This document shows, in pieces, positions 45,656-61,600 of a DNA stretch of 64,000 nucleotides. Origin of the DNA: Raja brachyura. Taxonomy: Eukaryota. The notes beneath the pieces are model-generated. The model saw only the letters and a list, made by a program, of their open reading frames with translations, was not told the DNA's origin and did not search any database. A program made the position numbers and the translations under genes. Each line of letters starts with the position of its first letter. Position 1 is the stretch's first letter. The DNA is taken from the NCBI GenBank assembly GCA_963514005.1, contig OY740786.1:30318001-30382000 (forward strand), given 5' to 3'.

Positions 45656-46379
45656 TAGGGGCCATCATTGTAGATATGATTCGTGCATTCGATATTTCCA
45701 TTTTAAATGATTAAATGCTTGATTTATAATATTCTTTCTGAAGATAGTTGTACACTAATTATTTCAAGGGATGATATAAGTTATGTCAAGGGAATTGATA
45801 GAGAAAGTGGATTTGTGGTAAAGAGTCAGCAAAGCCATTGATGAATTATGGACAGACTTGGAGAACTGAATTGTTCCTACTTTTTTCATTCTTTGATGTT
45901 TACTAATATTTTGCGCGGCACCTTCCATGAAATCAGTCCACGTCTAATCACATAATAACTAATGAAATATCTTTTGAATTTGTCTCTGTTCAAATTCAAA
46001 AGACATCAGTCAATTAAATTAATGGATCAGATTGATAACCTATCTGGTTCACTAATATCCTTCAGGGAAGAAAATCTGGCCTCCCCAGCTGGTCCAGCTT
46101 ATGTGACTCCAGGCTAAATTAAAGTGCTTAAATGTCAGTTGTTCCCTGCAAGTTGCTTTTGATGTCCTTTGCTGCTGATTTTGTGAGTGAATAAAATTAA
46201 TTTGGGATGATCAAAAGCACAATGTAAACAAAATAGTAAATTAATTTCCATACTTCCTTAATATGTAGTATAAACATTTCCATACCATTATATTCATGCT
46301 GACTCATAGAGCAATCCCCATTTCTCAGTCATTTTCTCGGAAACATATTCTTCCCATATTCTCTCTAATTCTACTACCG

Positions 46380-49347
46380 TCATTACTGTCAACTGGTTCT
46401 GTTCTGAGGGCTGTTGTTCACAGGTTTTGGGTGGGGCTCTTGATAGCATGTCAGCTATGTGCGTGTCCTTGCCCTTTTTGTAGACTATAGTAAAGTTGAA
46501 ATGTTGCAGCAGCATCATCATCATTGCGGACGAGCCGGAGTGGCGTGAATGGGTTTGTTCAGAATGGTGACCAGCGGTTGGTGGTTTGTTTCCACAATCA
46601 CAGTTTTGCCAAAAATAAAGTCTTTGAATTTCGTGCAGGCAAAAACCACGGCAAGCAGTTCTTTTTCAATCTGGGCATAAGGTTGTTCAGTTTCTGTCAG
46701 GGTATGGGAGGCGTAGGCAACAGGCATGTAGTCGCCGTCGGTGGAAGTCTGTAGGCAAGCAGCGCCAAGTCCATATTGTGATGCGTCACATGTTAGTGTC
46801 ACTGGCAATTTTAAAGCAAAGTACACGAGATTTGGAGCACTGGCCAGTTGCAACTTGAGGATTTCAAAAGTTCTTTGGTGCTGTGGGTACCAGGACCAGG
46901 CAGTGTCCTTGTGAGTCAGTTCCTGTAGGGGGACAGATATATCACTTAGGTTGGGAATGAATTTACCCAGGTAGTTGACCATTCCCAGGAATCTCTGTAA
47001 ACTCGTAGCGTCAGTGAGAACTGGCATCTCGTTAATGGCAGTGGTCTTGGATGGGTCCAGTCTGAGACCATCACTGGTGAAAAGGTGGCCAACATAGTTG
47101 ACTTCTGTGACACAAAATCTGCATTTTAGAGTGTTGAACTTGAGATGGATGGTTTTGGCACGGTCTAATACTTTTTTTATATTGGCATCATGTTCAGCCG
47201 TGTCATGTCCGGCAACGAGAATGTCATCGACAATGATGGTGCATGGATACCCCGCAAATAATTGGTCCATTGTGTGCTGAAAACCTCGCTAGCAGAGTTG
47301 ATGCTGAAGGCCATTTGTAGTGGCCAAAGGGGCTGTCGAACGTGGTGAGTTTGGACCCAGTCATGTTGTGCGAATGACTGGGTCATCTACATTGTGTCAA
47401 GAAGTGGTTGCCAACCCACTCCACGTTTATCAGATTATATTATGTCCACCTTGTTTGTTTTGTATACTTGCTATCGCTACCATGGCTAGCTGACTTCGCC
47501 AACCAGATCCTCTGATCTTTGACTCGGACTTCTCTGAATGTTGGCTCATTTTTGAGCACGACTACAACCATTACATTTGTGCTCATCATTGCAACGCTGC
47601 ACCTGACGTGCATGCCTCTATACTACTTAATGTTGCAGGCCCTGAAGCAATGAAGCGCGCAGAGCATTTTAACAATGCGCCTGCAGTTATGGATCACAAC
47701 AACCAGGTTGTGGTGCCTGCTGAAACTATGGATGACCCTGCAGTCCTGCTCACTAAGTTCAGACAGCTATGCGACCTTTGTGCCAACTCCATAATTGAAT
47801 GAACTTCGTTTTTTCCTCGCAAGGAGAACCTATTGAAAACTTCCTCAGCGATTTAAAACACATGGCTGCACGCTGCCGTTTCAGAGATTTGTGTGAAGAT
47901 CTCAGCCGTGACAAACTGGTAGGAGGTTTACTCAGTGACAAGGTACGAGACTAATTGCTTCGCGATACTGAATTGACCTTGGACTGAGCTGAACAAGATT
48001 GCAGAATCGCTGAACTTACGGCTCCCCACACAAAGCTTTGGGCTCTGGGCCATGATTCCCGTTCAATGTCAATACTACCGACACCTCCTATCATAACCGG
48101 CGTTCACAACCAACCTCACTCTGGCATCCTCAGAGATCTATTGAACGGTGCTCTAACTGTAACGGCTCCCACGTTTCAGGTCGTGAATTCTGTGCTGCTT
48201 ACGCTAAAATTTTCCACGAAATTGGGCTCGTTCGTTCCCAAGACAAACTGTACACCTGTTAAAACATGAACCTACTGATAACGAATTCCAAGAGCTGGAA
48301 GTGCCATCCTCTGCTCTCCTACCTGTGAAACAAGATAACAGTCCAAACATCCACTCCGTTTGCTTCCACTAACAAGCAACTTGACCCTGAAGTCTCTTTC
48401 CTCATTAACAGATTGACATTGGTGCTAAATGTAATGTCATGCCTTTATCTGAATTTAAACAAATTTGTAATACCGAACATATTGCAAACACTACGGCTAT
48501 GTTACGAGCCTATGAGGGAGGAATACTGCTCCCACTTGGAGAAACTGAACTGAATTGCCACGTCTAGGCACAACTGAAGTTTTTCATTGTTTGGGGGGGA
48601 TTCTGCAACTCTGCTTAGCATCAACGCATGCCAGGATCTAGGTCTGGTTATCTTTGGGCCTGCTATCCATCAAACCTCTCCCACTGAGGGCTCCACTCAG
48701 CAGATACTTTCACAATACATATAACTATTTGACGACAAGCTTGGAAAGCTGCTCATCAAGTACAATATCGCCACTGATCCAAATGTCAAACCTGTGGTCC
48801 AAGCACCACACCGAATCCCGCATGCTATGCGCGACAGAGTTTACAATGAGCTCCAGCGGATGATGTCCCTGGGTGTCATTGCTACGGTTACTGACTCGTC
48901 CGACTGGGTTTCCACCATGGTGGTTACAATAAAGAAAAACAAGGAAGAAATCCGAATATGCATCAACCCCAGAGACCTAAACACAGCGATAAAATGCCCA
49001 CACTACCCGATGTGAACAGTAGAGGAAGTTGCTGCTCAGATAGGCAGTGCATCTGTGCTCTCTGTTCTGGATGCCAAAAGTTCGTTTTGGCAGATTCCAC
49101 TTCTGACACCATGTAAATGACCCAGTCATTTGCACAACATGATACAACATAGTTTTATTAAAGATCACTTACAGTACACTTCAGCATGTTGTTATAGCTT
49201 GTGTAGCAATGATTCGACTGCTAGCATGAGCTGAGTTCTGATAATATAAACCGTATAGTAGGCGGAGCTTCTGCTAATAAAGCACTACGATTGGTTAGTG
49301 TGGAGTAACCAATCTACAGTTAGCAACTCAGTTGAGATGTATTAACA
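46380..49347 (-). mobile_element. Rearranged, 3'-truncated Ty3/Gypsy (Mag-like) LTR element with an internal inversion
   Basis: LTR (~49112-49347) and tRNA-Leu PBS TGGTGTCAGAAGTGG (49097-49111) on minus. gag-pro-RT N-terminus on plus (47480-49102). RT C-terminus and RNase H on minus (46521-47355). Confidence 0.85.
46521..47270 (-). pseudogene. Gypsy RT C-terminus and RNase H
   Basis: IIVDDILV, FLGMVNYLGKFIPNLS, TCDASQYGLGA, YAQIEKELLAVVF. Confidence 0.9.
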
Positions 49348-51425: not shown

Positions 51426-51696
51426 GTTAAGATTGTGCTCCTTATACCAGCCAGCCCTGACATAAAGCTGAGGGATTGGATGTGAAACATTCCAAACCCA
51501 ATCCCTAACTTATGAGTGTTCCACTGCTCGGCTTGGAGGTTAGTTCATGATGGGGTACAAGGTCATATGAACCAGCACCTAACCTTCAGAACAGATCAGA
51601 CTTCCGTGTTTCAGTGCCTTTATGTGGAAACCTGAGATATACTATACATTGAATCGCAGATCAGTAAAGTTGAGCTCAATGTGTCAGGAGCACCGT

Positions 51697-52017
51697 GGGC
51701 GGCATGGTGGTGCAGGGGTAGAGTTGCTGCCTTTTAGCACACAAAGCGCCAGGTACCCAGGTTCGATCCTGACTAGCGGTGCAGTCTGTATGGAGTTTGC
51801 ACATTCTCCCAATGACCACGTGGGTTTTCTCCGAGAACTTTGGTTTCCTGTCCCACTCTAAAGACGTACAGGTTTTTAGGTTAATTGGCTTGGTATAAAT
51901 TGTAAATTATTCCTAGTGTGTGTAGGGTAGTGTTAATGTGCGGGATTCGCTGGTCGGTTTGGACATGGTGGGCCGAAGGGGCTGTTTATGCGCTGTATCT
52001 CTCAACTAAAACCTAAA
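51697..52017 (+). mobile_element. tRNA-derived SINE (HE1-like), near full length
   Basis: A-box-like TGGTGCAGGGGTAG, B box GGTTCGATCC at ~51760, core GTCTGTATGGAGTTTGCAC, CR1-like tail. Confidence 0.9.
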
Positions 52018-52611: not shown

Positions 52612-52930
52612 TTAGTTTAGTTTAGAGAAACAGCGCGGACACAGGCCCTTCGGCAAACCAGGTCCGTGCCGACTAGCGATCCCCGCATATTAACACTATG
52701 CTACACACACTAGGGAATTTTTTTACATTTGCCAAACCAATTAACTTACAGACCCGTACATCTTTGGAGTCTGGGAGGAAACCGAAGATCTCAGAGAAAA
52801 CCCACGCAGGTCATGGGGAGAATGTGCAAACTCCGTACAGACAACACCCGTAGTCGGGATTGAACCCAGGTCTCCGCCGCTGCAAGCACTGTAGGGCAAC
52901 AACTCTAACGTTGCACCATTGTGCCACCCT
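52612..52930 (-). mobile_element. tRNA-derived SINE (HE1-like)
   Basis: (TTTAG)3 tail, ACAGGCCCTTCGGC, GGGATTGAACCC B box. Confidence 0.9.
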
Positions 52931-53676
52931 GCTTTGCTGGCAGTTATTTAACCCTGTGGTCCATGTACAGGTACTTCAATTTGATTGATAAGCATAGGGA
53001 CCCATATGTGAATGGGCTGAAAATTTACATTTGATTATTATAAGCCTTAACTAGTGGTAAATGTATATTTCCCAAGTCCAAGGCATTGTTGCATCTTTAC
53101 CTGTAGCCAATATGATTTGTTCTACATGCTTCAGCAGATAGTTGTAGTCCTCCTGAAATCTTGAATAATAAGGTCTTTGTTGATTCAGAATGGAATTTCT
53201 AAAGATAAGAAAGTAAGTAGAATAGTTAGCCAGTTAGATAGATTTGAAGTGACTGTTCACAATACCTTTGATCACACTTGAAAGTGTTTCTTCAAATGTA
53301 ATAAAATCAAACCCTATGAACCTTTAACTTGGCATAGACTTAAGACATGCTTTCAACTAAACTACAGTTTGGATCACCTGAATTATAAGTGGAGCCTGGA
53401 ATTAAAAGTGGCAAATGAAGTCCATTTCATTAATATTTACTGGACGACTGGACTTAAAAAGGAAAAATAAAGATCTTTAAATCATTCAAAACATAATCTT
53501 TCTTAGTCTCCAATTTCTGAATCTCCATCTCATCATTTGCGGTAATGAGTGGATGCAGGAATTTAAACATCATTGATAAAAGAGGAATGTTCAATACATG
53601 CACCATATCTGAAAATACTTAAAGATTATAACATACCTTACTCCTGCCTTCAGTCTGTGCATGCTCTTGTTAACTC

Positions 53677-54165
53677 TTGGTGGGAATCAGCAGCTGCAGA
53701 CGAGGTCGCCCCACCACCCAGATGATCACCTTCATGAAGGCCGGAGTGCGGCCGCCAAGAACCACAGCAGCCAGGAATCCGTCAGGAATCCTGATGACTG
53801 CACAGGACTGGCAGCTTTCTGTAGACCTGGTGAAACAGGTGAAGTTCCCACAGCACATTTCCACGACCACCCTGAGGCCAGATATCCTCCTGGTCTCAGA
53901 GGTGACCAAAAACATAGTCTTGTTGGAACTGACAGTGTTGTGGGAGGACCGTCTGGAGGTGGCCCACGAGAGGAAGATGCCCAAGTATGAAGAGCTGGTC
54001 ACAGACTGCCGTAAGCAGGGCTGGAAGGCAAGGTGTATACCCATCGAGGTTGGCTGCAGAGATTTTGCAGGGAAATCACTCTACAAAGCCTTGAGTGCAC
54101 TGGGCATCACCAGAGTGGCGAGGAGAAGAGCCATCAAGAACACCACAAGGAAAGCCTCAAGATGA
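53677..54165 (+). pseudogene. PD-(D/E)xK restriction-like endonuclease domain remnant
   Basis: DWQLSVDLVKQVKFPQHISTTTLRPDILLVS...ELTVLWEDRLEVAHERKMPKY; the TGA in AGA-TGA-CTC-TGG is probably premature. Confidence 0.85.
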
Positions 54166-54335
54166 CTCTGGACCAGGAGAGAAGGTCCATGGGGAGGAGC
54201 GAATGCCACCTGAACACAAGTCATGATCTGATCAACCACGCCTAAGTGTCTGATGTTGAGACCCGAAACACCCAATGACCCCAGGTTACATCACTGATGA
54301 TGTGTTCAGGAGCATCAATAGATGTATTTTTATCA
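53681..54335 (+). mobile_element. 5'-truncated RLE-type non-LTR retrotransposon (HERO-like, R2 superfamily)
   Basis: Restriction-like endonuclease motifs LRPDILL, LLELTV, ERKMPKYEEL, PIEVGCR. Possible TSD TCTTGG at 53675-53680 and 54336-54341. Confidence 0.85.
54246..54307 (+). ncRNA. Candidate non-circularly permuted hammerhead ribozyme in the HERO-like 3' UTR
   Basis: GUC triplet 54248-50, GAAA 54265-68, CUGAUGA 54294-300. Stem III GTGT/ACAC and stem I TGATGT/ACATCA directly abut the core motifs; stem II is weak. Confidence 0.6.
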
Positions 54336-55089
54336 TCTTGGAACCACTGTTTAAGGTGGCTGTTTCATGAGCCATTATCATAGATTCTGTCAATTTGTCA
54401 AGAGCATGTAAATATATGAGATGGTTTATATACTTACTTTCAAATTCATCTACGACCAAATCCCACTCCTTCTTATTTCTGCTTTATCTTCTAGCCCTAC
54501 GAAATCTCTTTGCTATTATAATTCCGGTCCCTTTTCATGACTATTTTTGAGCTAGTTATCTTATTCCAATGGGTAGTCTTTGGAATACCCTCCTACCTGC
54601 AAAATCCTTACATGCCTGGACCATTCCTTATAATTTTCATCAACTAAGATTTTTGTCACCTGGCCCAATCCTTCCAATTTTGTTTGATAAATCTAGGACA
54701 GAATGTTTTTACCAACATGGTAAGGTTGGTGCAATTCACTTAGTCTTTTGACTATTTATCATATTATTTCTCATATTGTTTTTTTGATCCAACAGCATTC
54801 CAATTCCAAGAACATGTAATTGTCAAATGAAATTCCATATTCAGAAATCTGAGGTGAAGAAGATAAATCATGATAAAGCTTACATGCACTGGTAAAAACA
54901 TAAGAAGATGTCTCAAATGGTATTAAGTTCCATATTTTCAACAATCTCCACATGAAGACCAATTCTCCATAAATATCATACTGATGATTTACATGATGAG
55001 AGTCAAAGTGTAACACAACATTGAAACAGGCATTTCAGTCCAACCTGGCCATACAGACCAAGATGCACATCCAAGCTAGTCGACATTGC

Positions 55090-58635: not shown

Positions 58636-61600
58636 TGTTGAAATGATCAGACTCATACATAGTTGTTAAAATCCATAGTCTTTTATTAGCAACTCTGCGG
58701 AGGAAACACTAGGTGATATTGTCTCCATACATTCAGCTAGTCTAACTAGAGCGAGAGAGAGAGAACTCACTATCAAACTATGTGGGGGGATCAGCAGTAT
58801 GAGTGACATAAGGAATGTGCAGCATGCATAATCTGTGTGGTGATATACATACTAACACACAAATCTACATCCTCCTTCTTAAATAATTAAATGCAAATGT
58901 AACACTACTGATTATACAGAGCACATATATTATGTGTCAATAAACTGGAGGAAGTTCAAACATAGCCGGGTACTTTACGGTGGGCTTACGTGTACGATAC
59001 AGTTTTGCATCTCCTCCCATCACTGGGGACACGATCGGTGGTGAAGTAGGTGTTGGAGATTGAAACAGCATTCCCGGTGACAAAACAGGAGACTTTGGCA
59101 CAGGTGGAGGCGGTGTGGCCATAGGCAAAGTAACCGGATCAGAAACAGGTTGTGATGCTGGTGCAGCGGGCCGATGCCGCTGGATGTAGATGTGCGGTCA
59201 GGATAGTATGGAGGTGGTGCTGGCTCATTCACAGGCAGGATATGTTGCCTATTACATCTGTAGTTGCCGCCATCGGCATTGACCAAGTATGAATGTGGCT
59301 CGGCAGCTGGTCCAGAAATTACACTGAGGCGGTCGTGACCTTTGTCATTTTGCAGACACACCACCTGTCCCTCGGCTAGCGGTAGAAGCAGTCTGTTCGT
59401 TTTATCATACCATCCTTTCAGAACGTTGCGCTTTTGTTGCAGTCTGGACTGGACCTCTGATGGTGGGAACACATGCGGTACCAATGCCTGTTTCGCCACA
59501 GGCAATGTGGCTCGGGTCTGCCTTGACATCAGACGTTGAGTGGGTGAACCCAATATCGGGTCACGGGAGATGTTGCGCAAGTTAAGCAGGTCCAGGTATA
59601 CATCTGATTTTGCTCCGTGGGACCATTCCATTAATTGTTTGGCACTCCTGACGGCACATTCAGCTAGTCCATTCGGCTGAAGGTACTCAGGGCTGCTGTT
59701 GATGTGACGAAAATCCCAGCGTCTAGCTGGTCTTTGAAGTACTGGCTGGTAGATTGGCTGCCATTATCAAATAGTAGTTGACATGGAGCTCCATGGTCAG
59801 AGAAATGGCAAGCCAGCTTCCCCCATGAGAAGTGGGGCTACAAAGAAGATCGATGTCAAACCAACCAGAATACAAGTGGACAAGAACCAGGTAATGTTTG
59901 CCACGCCACTCAAATACGTCAGTTGCCACTATGGACCACACAAGGGCCAGAACCGGTTGTGAGAGAAGTGGTTGCTTTTGTTAATGTGGTGCCAAACTGT
60001 TGCACACTGCACAGGATTCCACTTTCTCGTGAATGTAATCGGCCATACCAGGCCAGAAAAACATGTTTTTTGCTCACAGGACAGTTGCTTCAGCACCTGG
60101 GTGTCCCGCATGGACAGCATCAAAATACTTGCTGTGTAGAATGGCAGGAACTACAGCGTTGTGGCTCTTTGCAATAATGTCATCTTGTAGTACTAGTTCA
60201 TCACAAACGGCAAAGAACAGCCGAACTGGAAGTGGTAGATATTATTGCTTGTCAGGCCAACCGTGCTTAATGATAGAGGAGAGCGATTGTAAGGTATCGT
60301 CAGCAGTAGTGTGGGCTACCTGGTCCTCTAAGCAGGACGAGAGACTAAAGGAAACAGTCATAACCACAAAACTCATCTGGTGTGGATGAACCCTCGCAGG
60401 TCTTTCGAGAAGCATGCGAGAGGGTGTCAGCCAGGTGCATGTCCTTGCCACGTTTGTAGGTTAGAACAATGTCATACTTCTGAAGCTGTAGCAACATCTG
60501 TTGAAGGTGTCTTGGTGAGACGTGTACTGGTTTGTTCAAAATGCTAATTAGGGGTTGATGGTCAGTTTCGATCATAGGCAACAGGCCTGTTGTCGTCACC
60601 ATCATCTTGGAGGCAAGCTGCTCCTAAACCATACTGCGAGGCGTCACAAGTTAGTGTGACCGGTAATTTAGCATTAAAGTAGGCGAGAGTGGGGGCACAA
60701 GACATCTGTTGTTTGAGAGTGTCAAACGGTCTCTGCTATTGCTCATGCCAGGCCCAAACAGCATCTTTGTGGGTTAGCTGGCGCAGTGGGGCCGATAGTT
60801 CACTGAAGTTTGGAATGAATTTCCCCAAGTAATTTACCATGCCAATGAATCTCTGCAGGCTGATCACGGGTGTGGGTGCTGGTAACTCGTTGATAGCAAT
60901 GGTTTTTGATGTATTGAGTTTGAAGCTGTCTTTTGTGAACACATGGCCTACGTAATTCACTGCATTTACTCTGAATTTGCACTTTGGAGGGTTTAACTTG
61001 AGGTTGATTGCTTTAGCGCGGTTCAGAAATGTCTTTAACTTCACTTTGTGTTCTTGAATAGTTTGTCCAGCAACAAGGATATTATCAACTATGATGGAGC
61101 ATGGGTAACCTGCAACAATTGTTTCATAGCTCGTTGAAATACTTCACTAGCAGAGCTTATGCCAAATGTCATGCGAAGAAATTTGTAACGTCCAAAGGGT
61201 GTGCTGAAAGTGTTTAACTTGGAGGAGTTGTGATCCAGGGCATTCTGCCAGAATGAACTCTTGGCATCTAGCACCGTGAATACAGTCACCTTGCCCAGCT
61301 GAAATCTCTTCCACTGTGCACATGGGATAGTGTGACTGTTTAATGGCAGTGTTTAACTCTTTAGGATTGATGCAAATCCATATTTCGTCCTTATTCTTTT
61401 TTGTTGCCATGACCATGGTCGAGACCCAATCTGATGGGTCAGCGAAGGGGGTATTCACCCCCCCCCCCCCCCCCCCCGGGTCACCATTCTGTTGATTTCA
61501 CCTTGTACACAGTCCCACATAGCATGGGGGATCCTGTGTGCCAGACGGACAACTGAGAGTACCTTGGGCTCAGTCGTGATTGTGTACTTGACAGGTAACC

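What the first reader, a model, noticed from the sequence alone, without database searches (positions are those of the whole stretch)
54246..54307. Non-circularly permuted hammerhead ribozyme candidate in the 3' UTR of a HERO-like retrotransposon
Seen: all three hammerhead core strands are present with correctly abutting helices, but in a scrambled order. Strand A is GTGT-C-TGATGT (54246-56; GUC cleavage triplet). Strand C is GACCC-GAAA-CAC (54260-71). Strand B is ACATCA-CTGATGA-TGTGT (54288-305). Stem III is GTGT/ACAC, including the U16.1-A15.1 pair. Stem I is a perfect 6-bp TGATGT/ACATCA. Stem II is weak (C64-G02, C62-G04, A61-U05, G60-U06, with an extra U and one mismatch). Established: type I/II/III hammerheads are circular permutations of A-B-C, so A-C-B requires a pseudoknotted topology; from memory, non-circular permutations have been reported but are rare. 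R2-group elements are known for 5' HDV-like ribozymes. Inference: a 3'-end-processing ribozyme of this RLE element, cutting ~85 nt before the element end, with the pieces held together by pairing. This copy may be partly decayed.
Basis: partly seen in the sequence, partly recalled or inferred. Interest (0 to 1): 0.8.

Follow-up and report, generated by a model that had tools for sequence, protein, structure and literature searches.

The report
Four-way-junction hammerhead in HERO retrotransposons
A widespread family of animal jumping genes (likely the HERO clade) carries at its tail a deeply conserved, rearranged hammerhead RNA of a shape we could not find described, which is predicted to cut itself and likely frees unit-length RNAs that are copied as circles; the copy in this window has lost part of it.

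Summary
In diverged relatives (33-69% protein identity) the strand before GAAA pairs with a strand upstream of the cut site, which this copy has lost in a 15-nt deletion. The strand after CUGANGA closes a separate helix. The A9-G10.1 link is therefore opened into a four-way junction, and a kink-turn signature sits beyond stem III. The top 23 of 6016 column pairs by covariation are all predicted pairs, and the catalytic bases are nearly invariant. This form lies outside the six permutations of Eckert et al. 2023, whose type SGC came from metatranscriptomes only. Longer copies are head-to-tail: 50 of 60 copies picked by their 5' UTR run into an upstream tail, 32 read through the cut site, and none starts at it. 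Best reading: cleavage frees unit-length RNA, which is re-joined and reverse-transcribed as a circle, as proposed for Penelope elements. Cleavage and circles are untested. This copy is probably dead.

The parts
53681..54335 (+). 5'-truncated copy of a HERO-like RLE non-LTR retrotransposon (family A)
   Evidence: About 89% identical to other copies from 53681 on; 1078 candidates in G000; C-terminal fragment 58% identical to AAN12398.1
53675..53680 (+). Likely target-site duplication, left copy (6 bp)
   Evidence: The same hexamer lies flush at both element ends
54336..54341 (+). Likely target-site duplication, right copy (6 bp)
53681..54213 (+). Remnant of the ORF end (restriction-like endonuclease, PD..D/E motif region); premature stop at 54163-65; family stop codon at 54211-13
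54209..54218 (+). Helix P0, 5' strand (overlaps the stop codon); pairs with 54301-54310
   Evidence: 93.1% of cells paired, 8 of 8 pairs with compensatory change; formed in the MFE folds
54219..54240 (+). Hairpin b (fourth arm of the junction) with the palindromic loop hexamer at 54229-34; 3' arm cut short here by the deletion
   Evidence: 95.2% paired; loop classes on the tree
54243..54244 (+). Site of a 15-nt deletion that removes the stem II 5' strand (with G10.1), most of the I/II interaction strand and the non-bulged GA of the kink-turn
   Evidence: Alignment with other copies
54246..54256 (+). Block S: stem III strand, GUC triplet (predicted cut 3' of C54250), stem I strand
   Evidence: U16.1-A15.1 paired in 51 of 54; H17 is A, C or U in 54 of 54
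54260..54273 (+). Block G: stem II 3' strand (54260-64), GAAA (54265-68), stem III strand (54268-73)
   Evidence: stem II 96.5% and stem III 95.4% paired
54274..54278 (+). Bulged strand of the predicted kink-turn (3-nt bulge plus GA)
   Evidence: Signature in 51 of 62 distinct matches
54280..54285 (+). 3' strand of the stem I/II interaction helix (its partner is deleted in this copy)
   Evidence: 89.4% paired over 3 counted pairs; columns 54-100 rank 19th by covariation
54288..54300 (+). Block C without its stem II strand: stem I strand (54288-93) and CUGAUGA (54294-300)
   Evidence: Stem I 98.6% paired; U4, G5, A6, A9 in 54 of 54, G8 in 53 of 54, N7 free
54301..54310 (+).
54312..54335 (+). 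Tail hairpin and tail; in longer copies the tail runs straight into the 5' UTR of the next unit

Best explanation
This is a decayed copy of a conserved, non-circularly permuted hammerhead motif of HERO-like retrotransposons that is predicted to self-cleave and likely cuts head-to-tail transcripts into unit-length RNAs, which would be re-joined into circles and copied by the element's reverse transcriptase. Shown by covariation: strand order P0, hairpin b, stem II 5' strand, interaction strand, S, G, interaction strand, C, P0. In this order A9 leads into P0 and G10.1 comes from upstream, so core/stem II, P0 and b meet in a junction with no unpaired bases. Shown in sequence: a kink-turn signature between stem III and the I/II interaction helix. 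Shown in genomes: more-than-unit, head-to-tail copies with scattered 5' ends that cross the cut site. Inferred: catalysis 3' of GUH (about 0.9 for intact copies); a kink that lets stem III reach the I/II helix, perhaps helped by an L7Ae-type host protein; ligation of the two ends, which the five helices would hold together; priming at the tail and reverse transcription round the circle (about 0.6). Only an insertion longer than one unit has two ribozymes and would be a competent parent. The window copy has lost stem II and is predicted inactive.
For: Structure: 94.9% of 922 cells paired, 27 of 32 pairs compensatory, slid controls 34-43%. Top 23 of 6016 column pairs by MI-APC are predicted pairs. 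Held-out matches, with stems I and II not in the model: stem II 123 of 132, stem I 124 of 132. 6-14 changes of pair type for most stem pairs on a protein tree. Flush junction in 29 of 47 cores, reached by 0-2 of 200 shuffles each. Catalytic pattern: G5, A6, A9, A13, A14 in 54 of 54; G8 53; C3 52; G12 50; N7 free; H17 never G; 10.1-11.1 paired in 52 of 54 with no change of Watson-Crick type. Kink-turn signature in 51 of 62. Head-to-tail: 50 of 60 own-genome loci picked by 5' UTR continue into an upstream tail, 32 cross the cut site, 0 start within 3 nt of it; ribozyme-ORF-ribozyme in 5 of 12 fetched stretches; a 5'-UTR-like sequence follows the ribozyme in 17 of 56 relatives. 13 of 18 ends downstream of the site cluster at stem I/CUGANGA (0 of 10000 uniform draws), as if the template were folded there. 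The same cycle is proposed for Penelope-like elements (PMC4209133).
Against: No cleavage or circle was observed. A hammerhead with the A9-G10.1 link opened has no precedent in what I read; one extra nucleotide there is tolerated (PMC3705267, PMC4209133), a whole junction is untested. Part of the core conservation is built in, because the training rows were picked with the core motifs and the model scores them. 18 of 47 cores lack a strictly flush junction; most have one mismatch, but L083, L084, L088 and L092 fit poorly. No motif was found in L102 or L117 although both have room. Uncleaved multimeric templates explain read-through of the site equally well. Host transcripts in one RNA run read across the site, though from copies 85-95% like the reference.
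Confidence: 0.62

Rival explanations
1. The ribozyme is active but slow or regulated and only trims the 5' side of read-through or tandem co-transcripts, as the HDV-like ribozyme does for R2. Templates are linear multimers whose inner ribozymes mostly stay uncut, and no circle is made.
For: Type-SGC ribozymes are slow, 0.007-0.19 per minute (PMC10085705). Read-through of the site needs no ligation. RNA reads cross the site.
Against: A linear template whose 5' end is the cut should leave long copies that start at the cut; 0 of 50 do. The single contig starting 1 nt past the site (L043) is an assembly end with no flank.
Confidence: 0.2
2. The motif is a catalytically dead or incidental hammerhead-like fold kept as the 3' recognition element for the element's protein. 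Head-to-tail copies come from template jumping between linear RNAs, perhaps paired through the palindromic loop.
For: RLE LINEs bind structured 3' UTRs (own knowledge). No scar at the site in 30 of 30 copies. The loop of hairpin b is self-complementary in most lineages. The broken A9-G10.1 link might impair catalysis.
Against: Conservation follows the catalytic rules (G8, G12, NUH with H never G, free N7) across deep branches. The tail/5' UTR junction reads nearly the same in independent copies, so it looks templated and not made anew by jumps.
Confidence: 0.1
3. One reading: an ordinary type-SGC hammerhead whose stem II is formed by the strand after CUGANGA, trimming the RNA 85 nt before its 3' end, with the pieces held together by pairing.
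For: S-G-C order and stems I and III are real. The helices would hold the pieces together.
Against: That stem II is paired in 55.9% of cells and its pairs rank 95-5591 of 6016 by covariation. The strand is taken up by P0. No short copies begin at the site.
Confidence: 0.05
4. Chance arrangement of short motifs in a decayed repeat.
For: 4 of 150 random windows give a core as good as what the window alone shows. No Rfam match.
Against: 66 of 84 related loci match the model on the coding strand behind the ORF, with strong covariation.
Confidence: 0.01

Closest known systems
Type-SGC hammerhead ribozymes (HRIMA-1 and variants; Eckert et al. 2023, PMC10085705; main text read, supplement passages only)
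   Same: S-G-C order; short linker from stem I to stem II; a helix joining the far sides of stems I and II; the same core nucleotides; two pseudoknots in the core.
   Different: There block C is assumed uninterrupted (CUGANGA followed at once by the stem II strand). Here that strand and the interaction strand lie upstream of block S, and the opening is closed by P0 and hairpin b as a four-way junction; a kink-turn signature lies beyond stem III. Their SGC motifs came from metatranscriptomes and none from genomes of known organisms, although RefSeq was searched; these lie in animal retrotransposons.
Hammerheads of Penelope-like elements (Cervera and de la Pena 2014, PMC4209133; passages read)
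   Same: A hammerhead in the terminal repeat of a partially tandem retroelement; a conserved G10.1-C11.1 pair; tolerance of an insertion after A9; a palindrome suggesting dimers; the proposed cycle of cleavage, circularisation and more-than-unit copying.
   Different: Those are minimal type I (circularly permuted) hammerheads in GIY-YIG elements. This is a non-circular form with full stems in an RT plus restriction-like endonuclease LINE.
HEROTn / HEROFr / HERODr and Zebulon of pufferfish
   Same: The family RT is 70% identical over 497 aa to BAC82599.1 of Tetraodon, which shares a 90% cluster with AAN12398.1. CCHC plus PD..D after the RT and no fixed target (PMC2790886, PMC3636483, PMC4640811; passages). 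I recall AAN12398.1 as Zebulon, reported in 2003 to transpose as partial tandems; that paper was not available.
   Different: No ribozyme, kink-turn or circular intermediate was found described for them in ten literature searches. The link from these accessions to the names is inferred or recalled.
R2 elements with a 5' HDV-like ribozyme
   Same: An RLE non-LTR element whose RNA is released from a co-transcript by self-cleavage (PMC7650587, passage).
   Different: Different ribozyme class; R2 is site-specific, its ribozyme lies at the 5' end and full-length copies start at the cut.

Membership tests
Hammerhead ribozyme | Core C3 U4 G5 A6 N7 G8 A9, G12 A13 A14, A15.1-U16.1, H17 | tested here: met
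   Window. Family: 50-54 of 54 at each position, N7 free, H never G; rows partly selected for the core
Hammerhead ribozyme | Stems I and III flush with the core | tested here: met
   98.6% and 95.4% paired with compensatory changes; stem I 124 of 132 held out
Hammerhead ribozyme | Stem II with a G10.1-C11.1 pair next to G12 | tested here: met
   Met in the family through an upstream strand (96.5%; 123 of 132). Not met in the window copy, where the strand is deleted
Hammerhead ribozyme | [quoted passage not shown] | tested here: met
   A helix joins the strands that extend stems I and II, 4-5 of 5 pairs in 47 of 47 by best-register fit; covarying columns
Hammerhead ribozyme | Site-specific self-cleavage 3' of NUH | not testable with these tools
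   RNA read ends were inconclusive
Type-SGC hammerhead (Eckert 2023) | Order S, G, C | tested here: met
Type-SGC hammerhead (Eckert 2023) | Block C uninterrupted: CUGANGA directly followed by the stem II strand | tested here: not met
   Direct pairing after A9 gives 0 bp in 42 of 47 cores and at most 2; the one-nucleotide-shifted register is 55.9% paired; the strand pairs in P0
HERO clade of RLE non-LTR retrotransposons | Single ORF with RT, CCHC knuckle and C-terminal PD..D restriction-like endonuclease | tested here: met
   Intact ORFs of 1108-1129 aa in family B; RVT_1, and zf-RVT below its cut-off; invariant P-D and E motifs
HERO clade of RLE non-LTR retrotransposons | No fixed target site | tested here: met
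   Unrelated flanks across 60 loci
HERO clade of RLE non-LTR retrotransposons | RT groups with named HERO elements, apart from R2, R4, NeSL and CRE | tested here: inconclusive
   70% identity to BAC82599.1, which is HEROTn by organism and accession order (inferred), against only E 1e-19 to R2 chains; no tree with named clade members was built
Kink-turn | 3-nt bulge (RNN) followed by tandem G.A / A.G pairs between two helices | tested here: met
   51 of 62 matches; first bulge base a purine in 42 and third a U in 40 of 51; definition from PMC12510878. Not met in the window copy
Kink-turn | Tight axial bend and L7Ae-family binding | not testable with these tools
   Needs structure or binding data
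Penelope-like element | GIY-YIG endonuclease | tested here: not met
   No GIY-YIG match in two full ORFs; it works like a PLE in structure but is not one

The most novel reading that the evidence does not exclude
HERO-clade LINEs replicate through a ribozyme-made circular RNA. They use a seventh natural hammerhead topology in which the catalytic core is completed by a perfect four-way junction and a kink-turn, and the RNA may dimerise through a palindromic loop. Rolling-circle target-primed reverse transcription then explains their partial-tandem structure and their short ribozyme-bearing derivatives, and makes them a retrozyme-like system inside the R2 group.
Probability: 0.55. Interest if true: 0.9.

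Novelty: new variant of a known kind. Interest (0 to 1): 0.82.

Why it matters
It would be a natural hammerhead outside the six-permutation scheme, and the first non-circular one I could find reported in animal genomes. It shows that the CUGANGA block can be split from stem II, which is why descriptor searches and Rfam miss it, and it suggests that other split ribozymes are being missed. It gives the HERO clade a concrete, testable RNA-processing step and offers a cause for its partial-tandem insertions. It also extends circular-RNA retrotransposition from Penelope elements and retrozymes to R2-group LINEs, which are being developed as gene-insertion tools. Intact natural copies with open ORFs exist in this genome, so the tests are simple.

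Tried and rejected
Rfam: 0 matches at gathering score in the window, and no hammerhead family among 10 weak matches in 8 loci with intact motifs. Cleavage scars in DNA: exact-pattern counts fell from 288 to 245 over a 7-nt control step and from 245 to 180 over the 7 nt across the site; in 30 inspected loci the losses were substitutions and one deletion, with 0 truncations at the site, so this is not evidence. Deletions near the site among the first 30 hits are biased by the deleted query. RNA: no RNA holder listed on record. In one raw poly(A) run 5 molecules began 2 nt from the site on one reference, but this did not recur on a second reference; inconclusive. A junction pattern borrowed from relatives found 0 matches in G000 because the local 5' UTR differs; the junction was then found by protein and DNA search. 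Ragged 3' ends (4-11 nt into the junction sequence) cannot separate internal priming from a short repeat tail, and target-site duplications were unclear in most copies. Covariation inside the loop palindrome ranks only 299 and 3937 of 6016, so dimerisation stays a lead. No relatives in viral contigs. HERO sequences were not in the supplements of PMC5678591. The Zebulon paper was not held. Earlier findings: none on this motif.

Full report
OBSERVATION. The three strands are at the stated coordinates: GUC with C17 at 54250, a 6-bp stem I, GAAA at 54265-68, a 4-bp stem III and CUGAUGA at 54294-300. It is the only such core on either strand of the window. Taken alone it is modestly unusual: 4 of 150 random 64-kb windows give a core with stem I of 6 and stem III of 4 pairs. 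Rfam has no match in the window and no hammerhead match in 8 loci with intact motifs.

THE HOST ELEMENT. The motif ends a 655-bp, 5'-truncated repeat (53681-54335) with a likely 6-bp target-site duplication. G000 holds 1078 candidates, of which 40 were scored. Longer copies encode an RT, a CCHC knuckle and a PD..D endonuclease region. A second local family (B) has intact ORFs of 1108-1129 aa. Named protein relatives come from teleosts, lancelet and molluscs. The family RT is 70% identical to BAC82599.1 of Tetraodon, which clusters with AAN12398.1. PMC2790886 (passages) lists HEROFr and HEROTn as AB097130 and AB097131; matching these to BAC82598/9 is my inference, and the name Zebulon for AAN12398.1 is recalled. 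HERO membership is therefore likely, not proven by a tree.

THIS COPY IS DAMAGED. Against other copies it lacks 15 nt at 54243/54244 and 2 nt in the I-II linker. The lost piece matters, as the relatives show.

THE REAL STRUCTURE. A scan of metagenome contigs kept the best 80 of 324 relatives, 79 distinct loci; genome contigs gave 5 more. Hosts are not given. Of 82 loci examined (L114 and L115 left out, they end inside the ORF), 47 have a strict S-G-C core behind the ORF, 43 of the 65 with at least 200 nt of room; their reverse strands (284,557 nt) have none. In them the strand before GAAA does not pair with the strand after CUGANGA (0 bp in direct register in 42 of 47). It pairs with a strand about 20-21 nt upstream of the cut site. 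The strand after A9 pairs with a strand further upstream (P0), and a hairpin (b) fills the space between the two with no unpaired base. This flush arrangement is strict in 29 of 47 cores and was reached by 0-2 of 200 shuffles each. Most of the other 18 have a single mismatch; L083, L084, L088 and L092 fit poorly.

I aligned one own-genome copy and 28 of the 47 cores without structure; the 19 left out were near-duplicates, truncated, or parsed less well, which inflates the next figure. Six helices are paired in 94.9% of 922 cells, 27 of 32 pairs show compensatory change, and slid controls give 34-43%. With no structure assumed, the top 23 of 6016 column pairs by MI-APC are all predicted pairs. 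A covariance model holding only the nested helices matches 66 of 84 loci at E up to 0.02, all on the coding strand, plus the window at 54208-54311. Of the 18 without a match, 10 end within 150 nt of the ORF match, L108 and L111 are shorter than the distance seen in their sister loci, L083, L084 and L091 have a core by descriptor, L036 is interrupted, and L102 and L117 show nothing. On a FastTree protein tree most stem pairs change Watson-Crick type 6-14 times, while U4, G5, A6, A9, A13 and A14 are present in 54 of 54 rows, G8 in 53, C3 in 52 and G12 in 50; N7 is free and H17 is never G. Core conservation is partly built into the selection; stem covariation is not.

So the backbone link between A9 and G10.1 is opened. 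A9 leads into P0, G10.1 arrives from hairpin b, and core/stem II, P0 and b form a four-way junction (geometry inferred). Closing that link on paper gives exactly type SGC with its I/II interaction helix, so the motif is a circular permutation of type SGC opened inside block C. Eckert et al. [quoted passage not shown] One extra nucleotide at this step is known to be tolerated (PMC3705267 and PMC4209133, passages).

Between stem III and the interaction helix, 51 of 62 distinct matches have a 3-nt bulge followed by tandem GA/GA, mostly RRU. This fits the kink-turn definition (PMC12510878, passages). A kink here would answer the geometric puzzle Eckert et al. raise about joining the far end of stem III to the I/II helix (inference). 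The loop of hairpin b holds a self-complementary hexamer in 39 of 54 rows (five of these, GACGTC, could also be read as a tetraloop hairpin). Dimerisation is a lead only, since covariation within the loop is weak.

WHAT IT DOES. Copies are not bounded by the cut site. None of 30 copies picked by the 25 nt after the site stops at it. Of 60 loci picked only by their 5' UTR (two are duplicates of one insertion, some overlap loci seen earlier), 50 run upstream into the tail of a previous unit, 32 cross the site with 5' ends scattered from -6 to beyond -1400, none starts within 3 nt of it, and 18 start downstream. Thirteen of those 18 fall at +34 to +46, at stem I and CUGANGA (0 of 10000 uniform draws), as expected if reverse transcription stalls at a folded core. 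Five of 12 fetched stretches, chosen for having an upstream ribozyme or an intact ORF, show ribozyme-ORF-ribozyme. In relatives a 5'-UTR-like sequence follows the ribozyme in 17 of 56 loci. The tail/5' UTR junction reads nearly the same in independent copies. The template is therefore longer than one unit or circular. The simplest cycle is the one proposed for Penelope-like elements (PMC4209133): two ribozymes cut out a monomer, its ends are joined, and reverse transcription primed at the tail runs round the circle to give more-than-unit copies. Uncut linear multimers remain a fair rival. RNA data did not decide it: 99 and 102 reads from about 6% of one poly(A) run crossed the site, and a 5-molecule start pile 2 nt from it was not reproduced. 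Six of 30 family-B loci have large internal deletions but keep both ends, and a 662-nt joint recurs in three runs, which suggests short ribozyme-bearing derivatives.

NOVELTY. Ten searches (listings, with passages where cited) found no paper linking HERO elements to a hammerhead, or a hammerhead to a four-way junction or kink-turn in a retrotransposon. Subscription journals, Repbase Reports and bioRxiv supplements could not be seen, and the Zebulon paper was not held. Other passages read: PMC5678591, PMC9004415, PMC4640811, PMC3636483, PMC7650587 and PMC10294476.

VERDICT. A real and deeply conserved RNA structure that works like a hammerhead and fails one defining feature of type SGC. New variant of a known kind; interest 0.82. 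Catalysis in intact copies about 0.9, the circular cycle about 0.6. The window copy is probably inactive.

Noticed in passing
G000 loci L185, L187, L189, L193, L198, L206; L142/L143; L136:1049-1710: Internally deleted HERO derivatives that keep the ribozyme, tail and 5' UTR. Nine further loci hit like L206 with identical scores, and a 662-nt joint recurs in three runs: possibly a young non-autonomous, retrozyme-like family.
   Followed up: partly
L074:85-7266: Two HERO units only 68% alike sit head-to-tail, each with its own ribozyme: a mixed tandem that a pure rolling-circle model does not explain.
   Followed up: no
L083, L084, L092, L100: A basal sub-lineage with an AUA or GUA site, shorter G-to-C spacing and a poorer fit to the junction or kink-turn; it may be a different variant.
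   Followed up: partly
L049, L050, L076: C3 is replaced by U in a lineage (UUGAAGA or similar) with all helices kept; a natural core variant to test.
   Followed up: no
L174-L177 and related G000 loci: Family B is 93-98% alike between copies, has intact ORFs, and its protein is 80-83% identical to teleost proteins, closer than to family A; horizontal transfer is possible.
   Followed up: no
L107, L108, L111 3' UTRs: Long 3' UTRs with repeated GGATTA/TAATCC motifs ahead of the ribozyme.
   Followed up: no
window 46294-47802 and 59020-60177: Broken ORFs that look like RT/RNase H and integrase pieces of LTR retrotransposons (judged by eye).
   Followed up: no
window 51690-52000 (+) and 52620-52940 (-): Two SINE-like repeats in opposite orientation upstream of the element (family resemblance recalled, not tested).
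   Followed up: no
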